From positions 4,896,001-4,960,000 of the forward strand of contig OY776510.1 in NCBI GenBank assembly GCA_963675665.1: a DNA stretch of 64,000 bases, given 5' to 3'. The DNA comes from Spirochaetia bacterium (GTDB lineage Bacteria > Spirochaetota > Spirochaetia > UBA9216). The notes under the pieces were generated by a model that saw nothing but the letters and a program-made list of their open reading frames with translations, did not search any database and was not told the DNA's origin. This document shows, in pieces, positions 4,222-56,702 of the stretch. How positions within the stretch are numbered: the first letter of the stretch is position 1; each line of letters begins with the position of its first letter. A program made the position numbers and the translations under genes.

Positions 4222-4289
4222 TTTCCCTCCAATAGATTTAAAAAAATAATATTCCCCGCTTATTAGATGGTTTATTCCGATCTATTTTC

Positions 4290-5333
4290 TTAATTTGATT
4301 CAAACCAGTTGTATGCTGTGCCGGTAGTTTTTCTTACAATAAGCTCTACATCAAGCTCATTGCTTAATGAAACCTTGTTGCTGTTTATTATATTTACCAG
4401 AATCGATACTCCGGTCTGCCCTTTTTTAAGGGTAGACTGATTAATTGTTGTAAGCGGAGGGTTCATTACCTTCGCCATTGGGATATCATCAAAACCCACA
4501 ACCGAAATATCTTCGGGAATCTTTAATCCCATCTCCTGTATTGCATTCATTACACCGAAAGCCATAAAGTCTCCCGCCACAAAAAACGCGGTAGGCTTGA
4601 CGGTTTTTACCAGTTTTTTGGTTATTAAATAACCGCTGTCTATATTGTTGGCGCCCTCGGTTATCAAAGACTGATCTATCCTGATACCGTTTTTCTTTAA
4701 CGCATCCATATAGCCCCTCAGCCTGTCTGCACTGCTGGACAGTATATCAGGACCGTTTATAAAACATATTTTCTTATGCCCAAGATCAATAAGATGTTCC
4801 GTTGCAATAAGCGCCCCTTTATAGTTATCTACACATACATGCGGGACATTAGTTACGCCGGGCATCCTTGAAGTCAGGACATACGGAATACCGGTTTCCT
4901 CTATTTTATCTATGATATCCCTGTGATTAAGCCCAGGACTTATAACAAGAAGCCCGTCTACCCTGTTCTGATAAATTACATCCAGATAATTATCTGAACG
5001 GCAATACAGAAGCAGAATGTAATATCCAAGCGTATCAGCTTCCTTGAATATTCCCCGGATGATCTCCTCATAAAAAGGGTTCATAAACACATAATCAATA
5101 TCATGTGGAATAAAAACACCGATTGTATTATTTTTCCTGATGGACATTCCTTTAGCCATGGCGCTCGGCTGATAATTGTATTTCTTTACAGTTTCAAGAA
5201 TCCTTTCCCTGGTCTCAGGAAGAATCTCTCCCTTATTATTCAACGCTCTTGATACTGTTGTTTTAGAAACCCCCAACTCATTCGCAATATCAGCAATAGT
5301 ATATTTTTTCTTTTTCTTAGGATAATGCTCCAT
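4290..5333 (-). CDS. LacI-family transcriptional regulator (copy 1)
   Basis: [24 protein letters not shown]; [12 protein letters not shown] and PPLTTI C-terminal motifs. Confidence 0.95.
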
Positions 5334-15751: not shown

Positions 15752-15777
15752 AAAATTAGTTCTCCATTAAATCTAAA

Positions 15778-16806
15778 TTAGTCAGAAACCTTACCGGTAG
15801 TTTTTCTGACAACAAGCTCAACATCAAGCTCAGTACTTAACGAATCCTTATTGCCGTTTATTATCTCAACCAGCCTGGAAACTCCAGTCCTTCCTTTTTT
15901 AAGGGTAGACTGATTAATTGTTGTAAGCGGAGGGTTCATTACCTTCGCCATTGGGATATCATCAAAACCCACAACCGAAATATCTTCGGGAATCTTTAAT
16001 CCCATCTCCTGTATTGCATTCATTACACCGAAAGCCATAAAGTCTCCCGCCACAAAAAACGCGGTAGGCTTGACGGTTTTTACCAGTTTTTTGGTTATTA
16101 AATAACCGCTGTCTATATTGTTGGCGCCCTCGGTTATCAAAGACTGATCTATCCTGATACCGTTTTTCTTTAACGCATCCATATAGCCCCTCAGCCTGTC
16201 TGCACTGCTGGACAGTATATCAGGACCGTTTATAAAACATATTTTCTTATGCCCAAGATCAATAAGATGTTCCGTTGCAATAAGCGCCCCTTTATAGTTA
16301 TCTACACATACATGCGGGACATTAGTTACGCCGGGCATCCTTGAAGTCAGGACATACGGAATACCGGTTTCCTCTATTTTATCTATGATATCCCTGTGAT
16401 TAAGCCCAGGACTTATAACAAGAAGCCCGTCTACCCTGTTCTGATAAATTACATCCAGATAATTATCTGAACGGCAATACAGAAGCAAAATGTAATATCC
16501 AAGCGTATCAGCTTCCTTGAATATTCCCCGGATGATCTCCTCATAAAAAGGGTTCATAAACACATAATCAATATCATGTGGAATAAAAACACCGATTGTA
16601 TTATTTTTCCTGATGGACATTCCTTTAGCCATGGCGCTCGGCTGATAATTGTATTTCTTTACAGTTTCAAGAATCCTTTCCCTGGTTTCAGGAAGAATAT
16701 CACTCTTATTATTCAACGCTCTTGATACTGTTGTTTTAGAAACTCCCAGCTCATTCGCAATATCAGCTATTGTGTATTTCTTCCTGTTTTTTGGCTGATA
16801 AACCAT
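15778..16806 (-). CDS. LacI-family transcriptional regulator (copy 2, near-identical to 4290-5333)
   Basis: Same HTH and effector domain as copy 1. Confidence 0.95.
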
Positions 16807-31354: not shown

Positions 31355-32638
31355 TTATTTAAGGCTTTTCCGGAGCTCATCGCGAAAATCAGGATGAGCA
31401 ATATTTATCAATGCTTCAGCACGCTCCCTGTTGCTTTTGCCCTTTAAATGCGCTATTCCGTATTCGGTTACGATATAATCAACGTCATGACGCGAAGTCG
31501 TTACGCATGCGCCTTCATTCAGACGAATTACAATTCGGGATATTGTTCCGTTTTTACCTGTCGACGGAAAAGCAATTATCGATTTGCCGCCTTCCGAATG
31601 CATTGCCGAACGAACAAAATCAACCTGTCCGCCTACAGCCGAAAACTGTTTCGGACCAATCATATCGGCAGCAACCTGGCCAAAAAGATCAACCTCAATT
31701 GCGGAGTTTATCGATATAAGGTTTTTCAGTCTGCCTGCAACCAGAACGCTGTTTGTATAATCAACCGGTTTCATCAGTACGGCAGGGTTATCATTTACAA
31801 AATCATAAAGCCTTTTTGTTCCCATCAGAAAGGTTGCTACGAATTTACCGGGATTAATATTGTTGTATTTATTGGTTACAATACCTTTTTCATAAAGATC
31901 CACAACCCCGTCGCTGAACATTTCGGTATGGATTCCCAAATCCTTCTTCTCTGTAAGGAAATGCAGAACCGCATCGGGAATCGCACCGATTCCGAGTTGA
32001 AGGGTCGCCCTGTCGGGGATAAGTCCTGCAATATGACTGCCGATTTTTTCTTCAATCTCGCCGATTTTCGGAAGCGGGATTTCGATCGGATCGTAATTGG
32101 TTTCTACTATATAATCTACTTCCGACACATGGATAAATGAACCATGTGTACGCGGCATTTTCGGGTTCACCTCTGCTACTACAACCCTTGCTTTTTCAGC
32201 GGCCTGCATTGTGTAATCCACCGATATCCCGTAACTCATAAAACCATGCTCATCCGGAGGCGAAACCATTATGAACGCTACATCCGAATCAATAGAACCG
32301 TCGCGGATACGTCCCGGAAGTTCGGAAAAGAAGCACGGAATAAAATCTCCCCGCCCTTCATTGATCGACCCCCTGGTTGGGCCTCCCGCAAATATTGTTG
32401 TATGTTTGAATGTTCCTTCCCATTCCGGCCCGCAATACCAGCAGTCGTGAAGCGGAACCATATGGAAGACTCTGACGTCTTTAAGTTTATCCGCGTGATT
32501 TTTTAATTCATTTGTAAGCTCAACCGGCACTCCGGCGCAGTGACCGAGGACAATCTGGTCTCCGGATCTTACGCTTTTTTCAACAGCCGTCTTGAGATCT
32601 GTTTTCTTGTTGTTGTACAGAATCTTCCAGTCTGCCAT
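31355..32638 (-). CDS. abfT: 4-hydroxybutyrate CoA-transferase (acetyl-CoA hydrolase/transferase family)
   Basis: TLQLGIGAIP, GIHTEMFSDG, GGQVDF, VTEYGIA; context. Confidence 0.85.
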   Translation of the reverse strand: MADWKILYNNKKTDLKTAVEKSVRSGDQIVLGHCAGVPVELTNELKNHADKLKDVRVFHMVPLHDCWYCGPEWEGTFKHTTIFAGGPTRGSINEGRGDFIPCFFSELPGRIRDGSIDSDVAFIMVSPPDEHGFMSYGISVDYTMQAAEKARVVVAEVNPKMPRTHGSFIHVSEVDYIVETNYDPIEIPLPKIGEIEEKIGSHIAGLIPDRATLQLGIGAIPDAVLHFLTEKKDLGIHTEMFSDGVVDLYEKGIVTNKYNNINPGKFVATFLMGTKRLYDFVNDNPAVLMKPVDYTNSVLVAGRLKNLISINSAIEVDLFGQVAADMIGPKQFSAVGGQVDFVRSAMHSEGGKSIIAFPSTGKNGTISRIVIRLNEGACVTTSRHDVDYIVTEYGIAHLKGKSNRERAEALINIAHPDFRDELRKSLK

Positions 32639-32700
32639 ATCTAACTCCTATAAAAAGTCAACCACAAGCTAAAAATATAAGCTTATGATCTAGTCGGATA

Positions 32701-33813
32701 TCAACCGACCATTACAGCTTCCCATGCTGCTGCCTGCATTTCCCTGTATTCTTTTCTAAAAGCCATTTTCATCGGATCAAACGGCTCTCTGGTTTTTAAA
32801 ATTGTATATACCAAAGTGCTCATCTTGCGGGCGGCAGCTATTACACTCTTACCCGAGCCTTTCTGCTTCTTCATCGCTGCATACTTCGTCATTATTCGGT
32901 ACGTCCCGGTCTTCTTTTGCATACGAACCATTCCCATCACCATCTGTACGAAGGCTGTCCTCAGTTCTACAGGCCCACGCTTTGTTATATGTCCATGATG
33001 TATTGTCATATTTGAGTTCTGCACCCATGGCACAAGCCCGGCGTTTGCTGCATATTTCTTCGCACTATCATATCTGCCGATATCGTCTGTATAGGCTCTT
33101 ACTGTTGCTGCTGTTATTAGACCCACGCCTGGTATTGTCTGCAGAAGCTCAACATCTTCATCGTCCTCCACAAGCTCAGCCAAAACCTTTTCAAGCTGCT
33201 TGACTTGCGATGCCTGATTATCTATCATATCCAGTAACGGTATTACCGTTTTGGCAGCGCTTCCGTAAAAGTCGTGGTCCTCGAGACCGTTCAGGATTCG
33301 CTGCCTTTCTTTTTTACTCTGCAGCTGTCCGCGTTTGGTCTCTATTCCATAACCAAGTAATAAGCCATGCACCTGGTTCTTTAACGACACAACAGATTTT
33401 ACCAGTATCGACCTGGATTTCAGCACCCTTCGAATATCCTCACTCTCTTGGGAACATAATATCGATTCAGGCAGCATGTCTTTCTCAAGAAACTCCGCCA
33501 GGGTGCGTGCATCATGTTTGTCTGTCTTTTTTACAGATTCATTCACTACCTTGAATTTCAAAGTATTCACTACAACCACTTCGACTCCAGCCTTTAACAG
33601 TTTATTGCGGAAATAACGGGCATTCCCGGTTGTTTCCACCGCTGCTCTCAACTCATATTCCTCTTCACAATATTCATCCAGCATTTTCAGAAATGCTCCA
33701 TAACCATTTCCGCTGGTCGGATACATTCCCAATTGATCAATTTTTCGGTCTTCACTTAAAAGGCATACTGTAAACTGCGTTTTGTGAAGATCCACGCCAA
33801 TACTCATCTTCAT
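32701..33813 (-). CDS. IS110-family DEDD recombinase/transposase
   Basis: IGVDLHK, VETTG, KKTDKHDA, TIPGVG, AGLVP...S. Confidence 0.95.
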   Translation of the reverse strand: MKMSIGVDLHKTQFTVCLLSEDRKIDQLGMYPTSGNGYGAFLKMLDEYCEEEYELRAAVETTGNARYFRNKLLKAGVEVVVVNTLKFKVVNESVKKTDKHDARTLAEFLEKDMLPESILCSQESEDIRRVLKSRSILVKSVVSLKNQVHGLLLGYGIETKRGQLQSKKERQRILNGLEDHDFYGSAAKTVIPLLDMIDNQASQVKQLEKVLAELVEDDEDVELLQTIPGVGLITAATVRAYTDDIGRYDSAKKYAANAGLVPWVQNSNMTIHHGHITKRGPVELRTAFVQMVMGMVRMQKKTGTYRIMTKYAAMKKQKGSGKSVIAAARKMSTLVYTILKTREPFDPMKMAFRKEYREMQAAAWEAVMVG

Positions 33814-33848
33814 GTTCTATCTCCAATAGTTTGAAGCAGTGCCTATAC

Positions 33849-34001
33849 GGTGAATTGTTCCATTCTCCTATCCGGTCTCGCAGACCATTGAATGTTTCGG
33901 TTACGGCTCTTCAATCTCCTAAACGGTCTCGCGGACCAGTAAAAATGTCGAACAGTAACCTTACTGCCTCAATTAAAGTTAAGGCAGTATATCAATTCAC
34001 C
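33849..34001 (-). ncRNA. Putative bridge/seek RNA of IS110 copy 1
   Basis: Reverse complement of 54723-54875; see copy 2. Confidence 0.7.
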
Positions 34002-34026
34002 AGCTCATGAAGACTTTTTATCATTC

Positions 34027-34167
34027 CTCCTATAAAAAGTTTCCGCATGGATGCGGGTTTTAAGAGGTGAAGTAGTAAATCTAAACTGCGTAGCAGTTTA
34101 AACTGCATTGCAGTTTAGATTTACTACTTCAAAATGATAAAATAACATGGAAGTTATTTTATCATTC
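34027..34167 (-). mobile_element. Structured element E2, putative non-autonomous IS110-end MITE in tandem with the IS
   Basis: Preceded by TATAGGAG. Starts GAATGATAAAA (same as the IS left end) and ends ACTTTTTATAGGAG (same as the IS right end). Has a 14-bp hairpin with TTCCAT loop, a 21-bp GAAG..CTTC hairpin and CCGC-ATCCAT-GCGG. Confidence 0.78.
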
Positions 34168-34226
34168 CTCCTATAAGATTTTTTGCCAAAATTCTGAAAT
34201 ACAGCTTCCAGGGCAGTTTATTAACA

Positions 34227-34255
34227 GATCAAGCTGCGTAAAAAGCAGCTTGATC
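34227..34255 (-). terminator. Stem-loop after abfD
   Basis: GATCAAGCTGC...GCAGCTTGATC 11-bp inverted repeat, weak U tract. Confidence 0.5.
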
Positions 34256-34268
34256 ATTCCGTTTATTT

Positions 34269-35732
34269 TCAATCCTTTATGCCGGCGAGATCTTTTGCAT
34301 ACTGTTTCTTTCGCTGAACATCTGCCTGACGCGAGATCATTATACGCTGGGCCTGGGGCGAGCCGGCACCGTGCATTGATTCGGTGAGATAGCCTACAGC
34401 AGCTCTTCCCATTGTCAGGTTTTCAATAAGACGAAGAAGTTTAAGCCTGTCTTTTGTTTCGACGCCCTCAACTCCGCCGAGAAATTTTTTGACCATTTCA
34501 GCAGTTTCCGGATTAGCAAGGTCTTTTGCATTCGGGGCCGTTACCATCAGACCGCCTGCAATATCCTGAAGAAGACGCGCAATCTCATAAGGGAAACGGG
34601 TAACGTTCTGCTTGCAGACATTGGCCAGCAGCAAATCGATCAGATAGTTTCCGGATTTGGTCTTCTGACCGAGCCAGCAGCATGCTACTGAACTTGACCA
34701 TATTGTTTCATTGAGATGGTTCATTTCAACAATCTTGTCTTTAACATGTGAAGCTCTTGCACAGCCGTTGTATTCCGCAATCAGCTGCGCAGCGCCGATA
34801 GCAACATCGCCTACGCCTGTTTTACATGCATAACTCGAGCGATGATAGCCGGCAAATCTTTCAACCAGCATATTTGTAAAATCATATTCGCCGTCCATGA
34901 AGATCTTTTCATTCGGAACAAAAACCCTGTCGAAAACCATCAGGGCTTCCTGTCCTCCGAAGTTGGGACTTCCGGCATCCATGTTCTCTCCATCCGGATC
35001 TTCAAGAAGTCTTGTATCACAGGACTGGCGGCCGTAAATATAAGTAATCCCTGGGTCGTCAGATTCAACAACACAGCAGACTGCGAAGTCTTTATCCTCT
35101 TCGGTCATTGTAACTGTAGGCATAATCAGGGCCTGGTGCGAGTTGATACAGCCAGTCTGATGGGTCTTGGCGCCGCTTATTACAATACCGTCGTCGCGTC
35201 TTTCAACAACATGCACATATACATCGGGGTCAGGACACTGATGAGGCCTTTTGCTTCGGTCGCCCTTCGGATCTGTCATACAACCGTCTACAACAAGATC
35301 CTTTTCTTCCACCTCAAGCATGTATTTCTTGAATCTTTCATGATAGTCTGTTCCGTATTTCTCATCCATTTCATAAGTTGTAGAGAAAGTTGCATTGAAC
35401 GCATCCATACCTACACAGCGCTGAAAACATGTGCCGCATTTCTGGCCGAGAAGTCTCTGCATCCCTACTTTCTTGTACAGCTCCTCAGGACTCTGGTGAA
35501 TATGACAAAACCTGTTTATTCTTTTGCCTGTGAATGAAGATATTTCGGTCAGATCATCTCTGTATTTTGAACCTTCCTCTGCAAGCTCATAAGTAAGTGC
35601 AATCGAATTGATAGAAGCTGCAATGATCGGGTGATCATACGGATTCTCAAGTTTTTCGCCGGCCATATATACATTCAATGGTCTTCTGTTTCTCAGGCTT
35701 GCGCGGTATTCCTTACCGGTCATCAATCCCAT
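34269..35732 (-). CDS. abfD: 4-hydroxybutyryl-CoA dehydratase / vinylacetyl-CoA isomerase
   Basis: CGTCFQRCVGMD Fe-S motif, MTDPKGDRS, GAKTHQTG, YHRSSYAC, ESMHGAGSPQAQ; start at MGLMTG behind GGGAGG. Confidence 0.93.
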   Translation of the reverse strand: MGLMTGKEYRASLRNRRPLNVYMAGEKLENPYDHPIIAASINSIALTYELAEEGSKYRDDLTEISSFTGKRINRFCHIHQSPEELYKKVGMQRLLGQKCGTCFQRCVGMDAFNATFSTTYEMDEKYGTDYHERFKKYMLEVEEKDLVVDGCMTDPKGDRSKRPHQCPDPDVYVHVVERRDDGIVISGAKTHQTGCINSHQALIMPTVTMTEEDKDFAVCCVVESDDPGITYIYGRQSCDTRLLEDPDGENMDAGSPNFGGQEALMVFDRVFVPNEKIFMDGEYDFTNMLVERFAGYHRSSYACKTGVGDVAIGAAQLIAEYNGCARASHVKDKIVEMNHLNETIWSSSVACCWLGQKTKSGNYLIDLLLANVCKQNVTRFPYEIARLLQDIAGGLMVTAPNAKDLANPETAEMVKKFLGGVEGVETKDRLKLLRLIENLTMGRAAVGYLTESMHGAGSPQAQRIMISRQADVQRKKQYAKDLAGIKD

Positions 35733-35799
35733 ATTTTTCCTCCCGGCGCCGTATTCCGGTGCCAATTACAATAATTTTTATATAAAGGGCATAATCCCC

Positions 35800-46088: not shown

Positions 46089-46293
46089 TTATTAATTCAA
46101 ATCCTTTCTCAGTAAGCCGATATTTCTGTGTCGGGCTATTCGGAGAATTCGGCTCGGTACGTTCTATAATACCTTCCTCCAAAGCCGGACGAATATAGTT
46201 TTTCTCAAAATTATCACGCCCTTTAAGATTCAACGCATCCATCATCTCTTTTCGAGACATATCGTTAACCATTAGAAGTCTAATCACTTGAGC

Positions 46294-46384
46294 TACTTGC
46301 CCTGTTACTTGCCCTGTTACTTGCCCTGTTACTTGTCCTGTTACTTGCCCTGTTACTTGTCCTGTTACTTGTCCTGACTTGTCC
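46294..46384. repeat. 12-bp tandem repeat (CCTGTTACTTGY, ~7 units, encodes TGQV)
   Basis: Visible directly; one unit is shortened to 10 bp. Confidence 0.9.
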
Positions 46385-46390
46385 CCCCGA

Positions 46391-54619: not shown

Positions 54620-54697
54620 GAATTATGAAAAATCTTCCATGAGTTTTCATAATTAACTACACTGATCTGCCGCTTATGGCGGAATATATTATAGGAG
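54620..54697 (+). repeat. Structured element E4 (short form) immediately upstream of IS copy 2
   Basis: G-AATTATGAAAAATC-TTCCAT-GAGTTTTCATAATT ... CCGC-TTATG-GCGG ... TTATAGGAG; the start resembles the IS left end GAATGATAAAAAGTCTTCATGAG. Confidence 0.65.
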
Positions 54698-54722
54698 GAA
54701 TGATAAAAAGTCTTCATGAGCT

Positions 54723-54875
54723 GGTGAATTGATATACTGCCTTAACTTTAATTGAGGCAGTAAGGTTACTGTTCGACATTTTTACTGGTCCGCGAGACCG
54801 TTTAGGAGATTGAAGAGCCGTAACCGAAACATTCAATGGTCTGCGAGACCGGATAGGAGAATGGAACAATTCACC
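54723..54875 (+). ncRNA. Putative bridge/seek RNA
   Basis: GGTGAATTG/CAATTCACC closing stem, a 5' hairpin, and two repeated modules GGTC-YGCGA-GACC-..TAGGAG whose flanks match the target and donor junction sequences. Confidence 0.72.
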
Positions 54876-54910
54876 GTATAGGCACTGCTTCAAACTATTG
54901 GAGATAGAAC

Positions 54911-56023
54911 ATGAAGATGAGTATTGGCGTGGATCTTCACAAAACGCAGTTTACAGTATGCCTTTTAAGTGAAGACCGAAAAATTGATCAATTGGGAATG
55001 TATCCGACCAGCGGAAATGGTTATGGAGCATTTCTGAAAATGCTGGATGAATATTGTGAAGAGGAATATGAGTTGAGAGCAGCGGTGGAAACAACCGGGA
55101 ATGCCCGTTATTTCCGCAATAAACTGTTAAAGGCTGGAGTCGAAGTGGTTGTAGTGAATACTTTGAAATTCAAGGTAGTGAATGAATCTGTAAAAAAGAC
55201 AGACAAACATGATGCACGCACCCTGGCGGAGTTTCTTGAGAAAGACATGCTGCCTGAATCGATATTATGTTCCCAAGAGAGTGAGGATATTCGAAGGGTG
55301 CTGAAATCCAGGTCGATACTGGTAAAATCTGTTGTGTCGTTAAAGAACCAGGTGCATGGCTTATTACTTGGTTATGGAATAGAGACCAAACGCGGACAGC
55401 TGCAGAGTAAAAAAGAAAGGCAGCGAATCCTGAACGGTCTCGAGGACCACGACTTTTACGGAAGCGCTGCCAAAACGGTAATACCGTTACTGGATATGAT
55501 AGATAATCAGGCATCGCAAGTCAAGCAGCTTGAAAAGGTTTTGGCTGAGCTTGTGGAGGACGATGAAGATGTTGAGCTTCTGCAGACAATACCAGGCGTG
55601 GGTCTAATAACAGCAGCAACAGTAAGAGCCTATACAGACGATATCGGCAGATATGATAGTGCGAAGAAATATGCAGCAAACGCCGGGCTTGTGCCATGGG
55701 TGCAGAACTCAAATATGACAATACATCATGGACATATAACAAAGCGTGGGCCTGTAGAACTGAGGACAGCCTTCGTACAGATGGTGATGGGAATGGTTCG
55801 TATGCAAAAGAAGACCGGGACGTACCGAATAATGACGAAGTATGCAGCGATGAAGAAGCAGAAAGGCTCGGGTAAGAGTGTAATAGCTGCCGCCCGCAAG
55901 ATGAGCACTTTGGTATATACAATTTTAAAAACCAGAGAGCCGTTTGATCCGATGAAAATGGCTTTTAGAAAAGAATACAGGGAAATGCAGGCAGCAGCAT
56001 GGGAAGCTGTAATGGTCGGTTGA
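54911..56023 (+). CDS. IS110-family DEDD recombinase/transposase
   Basis: Protein identical to 32701-33813. Confidence 0.95.
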   Translation: MKMSIGVDLHKTQFTVCLLSEDRKIDQLGMYPTSGNGYGAFLKMLDEYCEEEYELRAAVETTGNARYFRNKLLKAGVEVVVVNTLKFKVVNESVKKTDKHDARTLAEFLEKDMLPESILCSQESEDIRRVLKSRSILVKSVVSLKNQVHGLLLGYGIETKRGQLQSKKERQRILNGLEDHDFYGSAAKTVIPLLDMIDNQASQVKQLEKVLAELVEDDEDVELLQTIPGVGLITAATVRAYTDDIGRYDSAKKYAANAGLVPWVQNSNMTIHHGHITKRGPVELRTAFVQMVMGMVRMQKKTGTYRIMTKYAAMKKQKGSGKSVIAAARKMSTLVYTILKTREPFDPMKMAFRKEYREMQAAAWEAVMVG

Positions 56024-56084
56024 TATCCGACTAGATCATAAGCTTATATTTTTAGCTTGTGGTTGACTTTTTATAGGAGCAAAA

Positions 56085-56702
56085 ATGCAGGTGTCTTTTA
56101 AAAAGATACTCCTGAGTATGCTGCTGTTTGCTGCGGGAAGTGCAACTTTTTTATCCGGAGACGATACTACGAATAATTACCTTTCATTATACGATTTCAA
56201 TAGCATGAATAACAATTCACAGTACGAATGGCAGGATTTTACTGATCAGGTAATGGGAGGGAAATCGGAAATATCCACATCCCTGCTTCAGGAGGACGGG
56301 GAGTTTTTTCTGCGGATGGAAGGCGAAGTGTCTTTAAAAAACAACGGAGGCTTTATTCAGACCCGGCTTCAACTGAGCAGGGGATTTGGAACCCTGGATG
56401 CTTCTGATTATGACGGAATCAGATTGCTGGTAAGGGGAATAGAGTCCGGCTACTACCTGTTTTTCAGAACAACAAGCACCATTCTGCCTTGGCTGTATTA
56501 CTCGGCCGGTATCGATGTAAAACCCGGATGGCAGGTAATCGACATACCATGGTCGGCAGTAACCAAAGGAGCTTACGGTTCAATGGGAAATTTCAAAACA
56601 TCAAAACTGAAAAGTATAGCTGTTGTTGCTTTCGGACGGGAATTTACAGCTCAGATTGATCTTAAACGAATAGGTTTATATAAAAAGGATCCTGAACTTT
56701 AA
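56085..56702 (+). CDS. CIA30-family protein with signal peptide
   Basis: W..FTDQVMGGKS, GEVSLKNNGGF motifs. Confidence 0.8.
   Translation: MQVSFKKILLSMLLFAAGSATFLSGDDTTNNYLSLYDFNSMNNNSQYEWQDFTDQVMGGKSEISTSLLQEDGEFFLRMEGEVSLKNNGGFIQTRLQLSRGFGTLDASDYDGIRLLVRGIESGYYLFFRTTSTILPWLYYSAGIDVKPGWQVIDIPWSAVTKGAYGSMGNFKTSKLKSIAVVAFGREFTAQIDLKRIGLYKKDPEL

What the first reader, a model, noticed from the sequence alone, without database searches (positions are those of the whole stretch)
56060..56090. Both IS copies insert at the SD and rebuild it with their own right end
Seen: the element ends ...GACTTTTTATAGGAG and is followed by CAAAA-ATG (CIA30 gene, 56085) in copy 2 and TTAGAT-ATG (abfT, 32638) in copy 1. 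Both copies are co-oriented with the downstream gene. Because the right end carries the same TTATAGGAG as the target, the downstream gene keeps its SD at the original spacing. Inference: a near-neutral insertion strategy that allows entry into the middle of an operon (abfD-abfT) and leaves a TAGGAG-N-ATG target in place for tandem re-insertion. The copy 1 flank fits the guide less well (about 8/10 with one bulge).
Basis: partly seen in the sequence, partly recalled or inferred. Interest (0 to 1): 0.75.

Follow-up and report, generated by a model that had tools for sequence, protein, structure and literature searches.

The report
RNA-guided transposon that rebuilds ribosome-binding sites
All 15 copies of this small jumping gene sit in a host gene's ribosome-binding site and restore that site with their own right end, and its guide RNA likely reads both the binding site and the start codon; mycobacterial IS900 is known to pick such sites, so this is a new variant, here with a small hairpin repeat that likely hitchhikes on it.

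Summary
Observation confirmed and extended. The element is a 1382-bp IS110-family IS with IS1111-type ends but an upstream guide region. 15 of 15 genome copies end TTTTTATAGGAG, 5-7 nt, ATG, co-oriented with an intact gene; background is 13-31% of AGGAG sites. Another strain shows exact empty sites with one AGGAG. Across 90 distinct homologous guide regions the left target guide tracks the left flank, and the right target guide starts with CAT (anti-ATG) in 79; a nested subclade that lost CAT pairs with its own non-ATG flanks. So the start codon is likely read by the guide, over a variable spacer. Tandem re-use is real: 4-6 copies follow a hairpin repeat with the same ends, whose family matches Rfam TD-2, and the copy-1 repeat is itself a precise insertion. 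Neutrality is untested: no RNA data. SD targeting is in print for IS900/IS901 (opposite orientation). The scan has noted SD-targeting IS110s before in at least 6 other genomes, and the repeat in this genome. New variant of a known kind.

The parts
54698..56079 (+). IS copy 2, 1382 bp counting one core (54696-56077 in the IS1111 7+3 convention)
   Evidence: 15 near-identical copies; empty site skips exactly 1382 bp
32645..34026 (-). IS copy 1, 1382 bp, between the abfD-like and abfT-like genes
54911..56023 (+). transposase, 370 aa; D8, E60, D98, D101 and S267 by alignment to ISCro4/IS621
   Evidence: PF01548, PF02371, NF033542 above cut-off
32701..33813 (-). transposase of copy 1, identical protein
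54693..54697 (+). AGGAG left at the left junction (original SD position)
54703..54712 (+). left subterminal inverted repeat ATAAAAAGTC; TAAAAA at 54704-54709 is the predicted -10 of the circle promoter
   Evidence: promoter is predicted only
54777..54784 (+). right target guide CATTTTTA (CAT complementary to ATG)
54800..54808 (+). left target guide GTTTAGGAG (SD-like)
   Evidence: covaries with left flanks
54830..54834 (+). right donor guide CATTC (complement of the left end GAATG)
   Evidence: 80 of 90 exact, shuffles mean 45, max 54
54851..54859 (+). left donor guide GGATAGGAG (matches the right end)
   Evidence: L137 changes guide and right end together
56065..56074 (+). right subterminal inverted repeat GACTTTTTAT; TTGACT at 56063-56068 is the predicted -35 of the circle promoter
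56075..56079 (+). rebuilt SD: AGG from the element plus AG core
56085..56702 (+). downstream CIA30-family gene, 5-nt spacer
31355..32638 (-). downstream CoA-transferase-family gene (abfT-like), 6-nt spacer
34269..35765 (-). upstream HpaB-family gene (abfD-like)
34027..34167 (-). 141-bp three-hairpin repeat with the same ends as the IS, directly left of copy 1; likely non-autonomous passenger
   Evidence: absent together with the IS in runs X5/X6, joint skips 1523 = 1382 + 141
54620..54697 (+). worn hairpin repeat directly left of copy 2
   Evidence: weak profile hit; present without the IS in run X5

Best explanation
This is a young 15-copy IS110-family element that sits in host Shine-Dalgarno sites and rebuilds them with its right end, and its guide RNA likely reads both the SD and the start codon to choose these sites. 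Shown: every copy lies at AGGAG-N5-7-ATG, co-oriented, with no duplication; four guide segments in the upstream non-coding region match left flank, start codon, left end and right end and change with them across homologs. Inferred: the element forms a circle whose joined ends make a promoter (family knowledge plus predicted boxes); the target loop pairs NNAGGAG on one strand and CAT-NNN on the other, looping out 0-3 spacer bases; recombination at AGG^AG leaves the old SD on the left and TTTTTATAGG+AG before the original spacer and ATG. The downstream gene keeps its initiation signal and is likely still expressed by read-through, at an unknown level. Because the rebuilt site is again a target, insertions stack. 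The TD-2-like hairpin repeats carry the ends the donor loop reads and are likely moved by this or a related transposase.
For: 15 of 15 against 13-31% background. Spacer of 6 in 12 of 15 against 273 of 841 genome SDs at 5-9 nt, p 2e-4. Exact empty sites. Outside this genome, ATG at +4 to +9 in 95 of 111 distinct right flanks of close homologs and 13 of 16 of distant ones. Left guide positions -7/-6/-5 match the flank 0.85/0.95/0.97 against shuffled 0.33/0.65/0.78 (84 elements); donor guide exact in 80 of 90; CAT in 79 of 90; the three guide bases after CAT match the three bases before ATG above shuffles when anchored on ATG (p 0.005, 0.001, 0.001) and not when anchored on the core. Of 78 elements with a readable right flank: CAT with ATG 65, CAT without 4, no CAT without ATG 8, no CAT with ATG 1. 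Non-CAT guides pair with their own flanks (7-7.5 of 8 in L138, L149, L151; mean 5.6 against 3.9 on others) and are nested among CAT members. Guides are unpaired between covarying stems, 20 of 30 pairs with two-sided changes. Cut site: L026, L072, L146 have GGGG on the right and GGAG on the left; L137 changes right end and donor guide together. The only tblastn-detectable pgi and lysA lie behind copies.
Against: No RNA, no circle junction in the contigs laid (contigs drop rare forms), no transposition assay. Shuffle tests ignore kinship; the 10 non-CAT elements in the tree are about 3 changes, 8 in one clade, on a quick tree with two mis-extracted proteins. L055, L137 and L153 do not pair well with their flanks (4-5 of 8). 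In this genome 9 of 15 left flanks mismatch the left guide at -7 and equal the donor end instead. 5 of 105 CAT junctions lack ATG. Pairing in the spacer is loose (matches 0.40-0.56).
Confidence: 0.85

Rival explanations
1. The guide reads only an A/T-rich AGGAG; the start codon follows because insertions elsewhere are purged by selection.
For: A/T-rich AGGAG sites are enriched for SDs (21-31%); insertions inside genes would be harmful.
Against: CAT is kept in 79 of 90 guides while neighbouring bases vary, and is replaced where flanks change; ATG-anchored covariation; spacing tighter than genome SDs; copies are nearly identical and absent from a close strain, so selection had little time.
Confidence: 0.07
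2. Targeting is as described but not near-neutral: the gain is a transcribed landing pad for the transposase and guide, and downstream genes lose much expression through broken coupling, polarity or a hairpin over the new SD.
For: All copies are co-oriented, so host transcripts would cross guide and transposase in sense; 6 of 15 split tight operon junctions; the right end can fold onto its own SD when the spacer starts with T, as in copy 1; one upstream ORF end is altered.
Against: No terminator-like site inside the IS in a simple scan; predicted cost of opening the SD region shows no consistent change (mean +1.3 kcal/mol, p 0.07, and -0.2, p 0.53, for two window sizes); single-copy pgi and lysA carry insertions; the habit is kept across several phyla.
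Confidence: 0.3
3. The hairpin repeats are not passengers: they are host cis-regulatory RNAs (TD-1/TD-2) that the IS happens to hit, or the copy-1 repeat and IS arrived as one composite.
For: Weinberg 2007 (PMC1950547, passages) lists TD-1 as usually 5' of genes with covariation; repeats occur in G004 and G002, where this transposase was not found with this query, and the strict pattern was not found in the two IS-bearing genomes G041 and G042; one strain comparison cannot order the two events at copy 1, nor exclude precise loss.
Against: The 141-bp unit is precisely absent in X5/X6, bounded by the same AGGAG; its ends equal IS ends that are conserved across phyla and read by the donor guides; downstream genes are unrelated; head-to-tail arrays exist; the two similar repeat+IS loci differ by about 9% in the repeat while the IS copies are about 99.9% alike, against a recent composite; at copy 2 the repeat exists without the IS.
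Confidence: 0.2

Closest known systems
IS900 / IS901 of Mycobacterium avium (IS110 family)
   Same: Insert between SD and start codon (Plague 2010, PMC2942039, passage citing Doran 1997 and Inglis 2003; those two papers seen only as reference titles). Target motif CATGNNNNNNTCTCCTT, the reverse complement of an SD-N6-ATG site; few genes disrupted (PMC8141618, passages).
   Different: IS900 carries the antisense hed ORF that takes the host RBS, which implies a transposase facing away from the host gene; here it is co-oriented in 15 of 15. IS900 is described without terminal inverted repeats; this element has 10-bp subterminal ones. No guide-RNA account of IS900 targeting turned up in my searches.
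IS1111-group elements such as ISEc11 (seekRNA; PMC11187229, section 6 and passages)
   Same: Perfect subterminal repeats, 7-bp left and 3-bp right extensions, no duplication, top-strand complement before bottom-strand match in the RNA.
   Different: Non-coding region upstream, not downstream (a noted exception class); 370 aa against 330-350; SN instead of SG; 10-bp repeats against the usual 11-13; target is SD plus start codon with variable spacing.
IS621 / ISCro4 bridge recombinases (PMC11208160, section 12 and passages; PDB 8wt6, 9t56)
   Same: Same two domains; left-end RNA with a target loop and a donor loop; predicted circle-junction promoter; tolerance of bulged and donor-like sites reported there.
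   Different: Distant protein (E about 1e-15); guide order reversed; long subterminal repeats; target is not a REP.
ISPpu9 and its ssr9 module (PMC12288879, abstract only)
   Same: An IS110 element with a small non-autonomous module next to it that uses its transposase and also occurs alone.
   Different: REP target; module downstream of the transposase; shown by experiment there, inferred here.
TD-2 / TD-1 RNA motifs (Rfam RF03162; PMC1950547, passages)
   Same: 17 of 18 TD-2 matches above cut-off in this genome overlap my repeat units, on the opposite strand.
   Different: Described as candidate structured RNAs of unknown function, not as mobile elements; the two window units themselves did not score.

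Membership tests
IS110 family (broad) | DEDD RuvC-like domain plus Tnp domain with conserved serine | tested here: met
IS110 family (broad) | no target duplication; one shared core | tested here: met
   empty sites
IS110 family (broad) | non-coding end with guides matching target and donor | tested here: met
   covariation and structure; RNA itself not observed
IS110 family (broad) | circular intermediate with junction promoter | tested here: inconclusive
   boxes 17 nt apart across the predicted junction; no circle joint in contigs
IS1111 group | perfect subterminal inverted repeats (7-17 bp) with 7-bp and 3-bp extensions | tested here: met
   10 bp, 7 and 3 (definitions)
IS1111 group | top-strand complement precedes bottom-strand match in the RNA | tested here: met
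IS1111 group | long non-coding region downstream of the transposase | tested here: not met
   213 bp upstream, 56 bp downstream
IS1111 group | transposase falls in the IS1111 clade | not tested
   no reference set of named IS1111 proteins was fetched
IS110 group (IS621 type) | guide RNA in the left end | tested here: met
IS110 group (IS621 type) | only 2-3-bp subterminal repeats and left-guide-first order | tested here: not met
IS900 / IS901 type | target is SD, short spacer, start codon | tested here: met
IS900 / IS901 type | antisense hed frame fed by the host RBS; no terminal inverted repeats | tested here: not met
   co-oriented 15 of 15; longest antisense ORFs 114 and 133 aa; 10-bp repeats
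IS900 / IS901 type | transposase in the IS900 clade | not tested
   IS900 protein not fetched
TD-2 motif (for the hairpin repeat family) | RF03162 score above gathering cut-off | tested here: met
   18 matches over cut-off, 17 on my repeat units; 150 of 681 candidates scored
TD-2 motif (for the two window units) | RF03162 score above gathering cut-off | tested here: not met
   no hit at gathering in the window nor at E<=1 on the copy-1 unit
non-autonomous IS derivative (for the repeat) | shares the ends of an autonomous IS and has a precise empty site | tested here: met
   one locus, one other sample
non-autonomous IS derivative (for the repeat) | moved in trans by the transposase | not testable with these tools
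   needs a bench assay

The most novel reading that the evidence does not exclude
A cross-phylum clade of bridge recombinases reads a split signal, SD plus start codon, across a spacer of variable length and sequence, so it can enter almost any strongly initiated gene without breaking it; and the orphan Rfam motifs TD-1/TD-2 are its non-autonomous passengers, which have stacked into and rewritten the 5' leaders of dozens of spirochaete genes.
Probability: 0.6. Interest if true: 0.75.

Novelty: new variant of a known kind. Interest (0 to 1): 0.6.

Why it matters
It gives a testable guide-RNA mechanism for a habit known since IS900 (landing between SD and start codon), with natural retargeted relatives as built-in controls. 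A target loop that tolerates a 4-9-nt spacer bears on bridge-recombinase specificity rules and offers a natural tool for inserting cargo just ahead of start codons while keeping the RBS. The precise empty site of the hairpin repeat offers an origin for the TD-1/TD-2 motifs, unexplained since 2007.

Tried and rejected
Expression: no RNA holder listed; no evidence either way. Circle junction: none in the contigs of the runs laid. Rfam: nothing at gathering in the window; only chance hairpin hits on the copy-1 repeat. Single-sequence fold of the guide region is stable (z -4.4) but its structure differs from the comparative one and was not used. SD-accessibility folding: no consistent difference. 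My first reading of the guides in IS621 order failed; CATTC covaries with the element's left end, not the target. Core-anchored pairing of the right target guide: not above shuffles. Donor-like SD pattern counts in 41 genomes (36 here, 15 of them IS ends; 21 in G002; 12 in G006; 8 or fewer elsewhere; control pattern 5 here) suggest footprints but kin are not independent, so not used. A possible 59-bp mini-element joint in X2/X3 (21 letters on the short side) was not found in the genome. The careful tree did not finish; the quick tree has two mis-extracted rows, L054 and L139. Literature searches for an IS110 guide RNA aimed at SD/start codons and for IS900-type targeting found no paper describing this clade; most subscription papers are not held and no supplements were read, so target tables in the supplements of PMC11208160, PMC11187229 and bioRxiv 10.64898/2026.10.21.760802 (passages and section 8 read) may already list such elements. 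Look-up of earlier notes by the guide sequence: nothing.

Full report
1. Observation. The repeat is an IS110-family element (PF01548, PF02371, NF033542) with 15 full copies in the 5.15-Mb genome that differ at one internal position. All 15 end TTTTTATAGGAG and are followed, after 6 (12 copies), 5 (2) or 7 (1) nt, by the ATG of a co-oriented ORF of 93-729 aa. Other AGGAG sites show this in 825 of 6549 cases, and 191 of 618 in the strictest A/T-rich context.

2. Boundaries. A contig of run X5, from another study, joins the flanks of copy 2 skipping exactly 1382 bp. Contigs of X5 and X6 (one sample) join the flanks of copy 1 skipping 1523 bp, which is 1382 plus the adjacent 141-bp repeat. Each leaves one AGGAG, so there is no duplication. 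The ends have perfect 10-bp subterminal repeats, 7 bp from the left and 3 bp from the right end if the cut is AGG^AG, the IS1111 rule (PMC11187229, passages). That cut is supported by L026, L072 and L146 (GGGG right, GGAG left; the L072 target guide ends GGGG) and L137 (right end and donor guide both read AGAAG). So the element supplies TTTTTATAGG and the host's AG completes the SD. Joined ends would place TTGACT 17 nt before TAAAAA (predicted).

3. The guide. I fetched 80 genome loci and 80 metagenome loci (best 80 of 216). With the 15 own copies, 137 loci of at least 45% identity had a recognisable left end, giving 90 distinct non-coding regions; the rest were dropped. Each holds two units: right guide, short hairpin, left guide. 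A 56-sequence consensus fold leaves the guides unpaired, with two-sided changes in 20 of 30 pairs. In the second unit CATTC is the complement of the element's first five bases in 80 of 90 (shuffles: mean 45, max 54). In the first unit the bases before GGAG match the left flank at 0.85, 0.95 and 0.97 against 0.33, 0.65 and 0.78 shuffled (84 elements); positions -9 and -8 do not match. The right target guide begins CAT in 79 of 90. Among 78 elements with a readable right flank, 65 have CAT and ATG, 4 CAT only, 8 neither, 1 ATG only. The three guide bases after CAT match the bases before ATG above shuffles, but only when anchored on ATG. Elements without CAT pair with their own flanks (mean 5.6 of 8 against 3.9 on others; three reach 7-7.5, three only 4-5) and nest among CAT members, as about three changes on a quick tree. 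The shuffles ignore kinship. The flush register predicts a 5-nt spacer; observed spacers in CAT elements are 3-9, 54 of 102 at 6, so extra bases are likely looped out. The order (top-strand complement first) is the IS1111 order, though the region is upstream.

4. Spread. Outside this genome, ATG lies at +4 to +9 in 95 of 111 distinct right flanks of close homologs and 13 of 16 of distant (under 45%) ones. Hosts are labelled Spirochaetota, Thermodesulfobacteriota, Bacteroidota, Lentisphaerota and others. 2451 protein clusters match at E 1e-30 or better among 7998 scored; none of the best 120 has an IS name.

5. Operon entry and neutrality. abfD and abfT lie within about 20 bp of each other in six related genomes. 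Six of 15 copies lie 3-20 nt after an upstream stop. Downstream genes include pgi, lysA, a dehydrogenase E1 beta subunit, lipoamide dehydrogenase and a KDPG aldolase; 8 of 15, among them pgi and lysA, have no second tblastn match of over 60% coverage. This suggests, but does not show, continued expression. Against: coupling is lost, the burst is young, the right end can fold over its SD at copy 1, and in one copy the upstream ORF's last codon and stop are replaced by 11 residues from the left end. No terminator-like site lies inside the IS in a simple scan; folding shows no consistent loss of SD access; no RNA run is listed.

6. Re-insertion and the repeat. Both window copies follow a hairpin repeat that starts and ends like the IS. 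Of 34 strong right-part profile hits, 24 are followed by ATG at +5 to +9, 1 by TTG, 4 by the IS, 3 by another unit, and 2 lacked GGAG (the profile includes the SD, so this is partly circular). A repeat precedes 6 of 15 IS copies against 40 of 620 other SDs (4 of 15 against 29 of 620 at a strict threshold; p 3e-4 and 6e-3). Arrays of up to five units exist. Following a lead from an earlier scan note, I found that 17 of 18 TD-2 (RF03162) matches above cut-off lie on these units, on the opposite strand; the two window units do not score. The precise absence of the 141-bp unit in X5/X6 is the best evidence that the repeat is mobile, from one locus and one sample. Repeats also occur in G002 and G004, where this transposase was not found with this query.

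7. Comparison and verdict. It works like IS900/IS901 in target choice but faces the other way and lacks the hed frame; its ends and guide order are IS1111-like, its guide position IS110-like; the repeat recalls ISPpu9/ssr9 (abstract). My searches found no paper on a guide RNA aimed at SD plus start codon; supplements were not read. The scan holds 20 notes on similar elements in at least 6 genomes, which are unchecked and not counted as support. Verdict: real, well supported, a new variant of a known kind; interest 0.6.

Noticed in passing
window 34168-34262 (-): The 95 bp between the abfD-like stop and the 141-bp repeat start with a hairpin resembling a worn left end and finish in TTATAGGAG; present in X5/X6, absent in six relatives. 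Possibly an older third insertion at the same SD.
   Followed up: partly
L137, L138, L145, L149, L151, L153, L157, L159, L160: Retargeted metagenome subclade nested among Treponemataceae-labelled members; flanks look like short tandem repeats containing GGAG or AGAG rather than gene starts.
   Followed up: partly
G000:C1:554254, 2046753, 2621717, 2819077, 3725667, 4457074, 4982017, 5030971: Eight weak matches (22-23% identity) to other IS110-type transposases; one lies beside the copy at 2622808, with a left-end-like match at 2621176-2621202. A second candidate mobiliser of the repeats.
   Followed up: no
G000:C1:1652333-1652891, 2973058-2973371, 836249-836456: Head-to-tail arrays of the hairpin repeat (5, 3 and at least 2 units) joined at AGGAG-like sites.
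   Followed up: partly
window 54693-54732: The old SD at the left junction is followed 2 nt later by an ATG that opens a 10-codon frame in the left end; spacing is probably too short for initiation.
   Followed up: no
window 56032: One T/C position splits the 15 copies 7 to 8, a marker for two lineages of spread.
   Followed up: no
runs X2, X3, joint 32664 to 33994: A contig joins a short left end to a short right end with six other letters between; possible mini-element in another genome of the sample, not in G000.
   Followed up: partly
G002: 21 donor-like SD-ATG sites and repeat units but no match to this transposase (81% complete).
   Followed up: no
window 46282-46389: About seven to nine tandem copies of a 12-bp unit.
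   Followed up: no
window 4287-4586 and 15760-16059: 300-bp direct repeat, 88% alike, at the ends of two similar-sized ORFs; probably paralogues.
   Followed up: no
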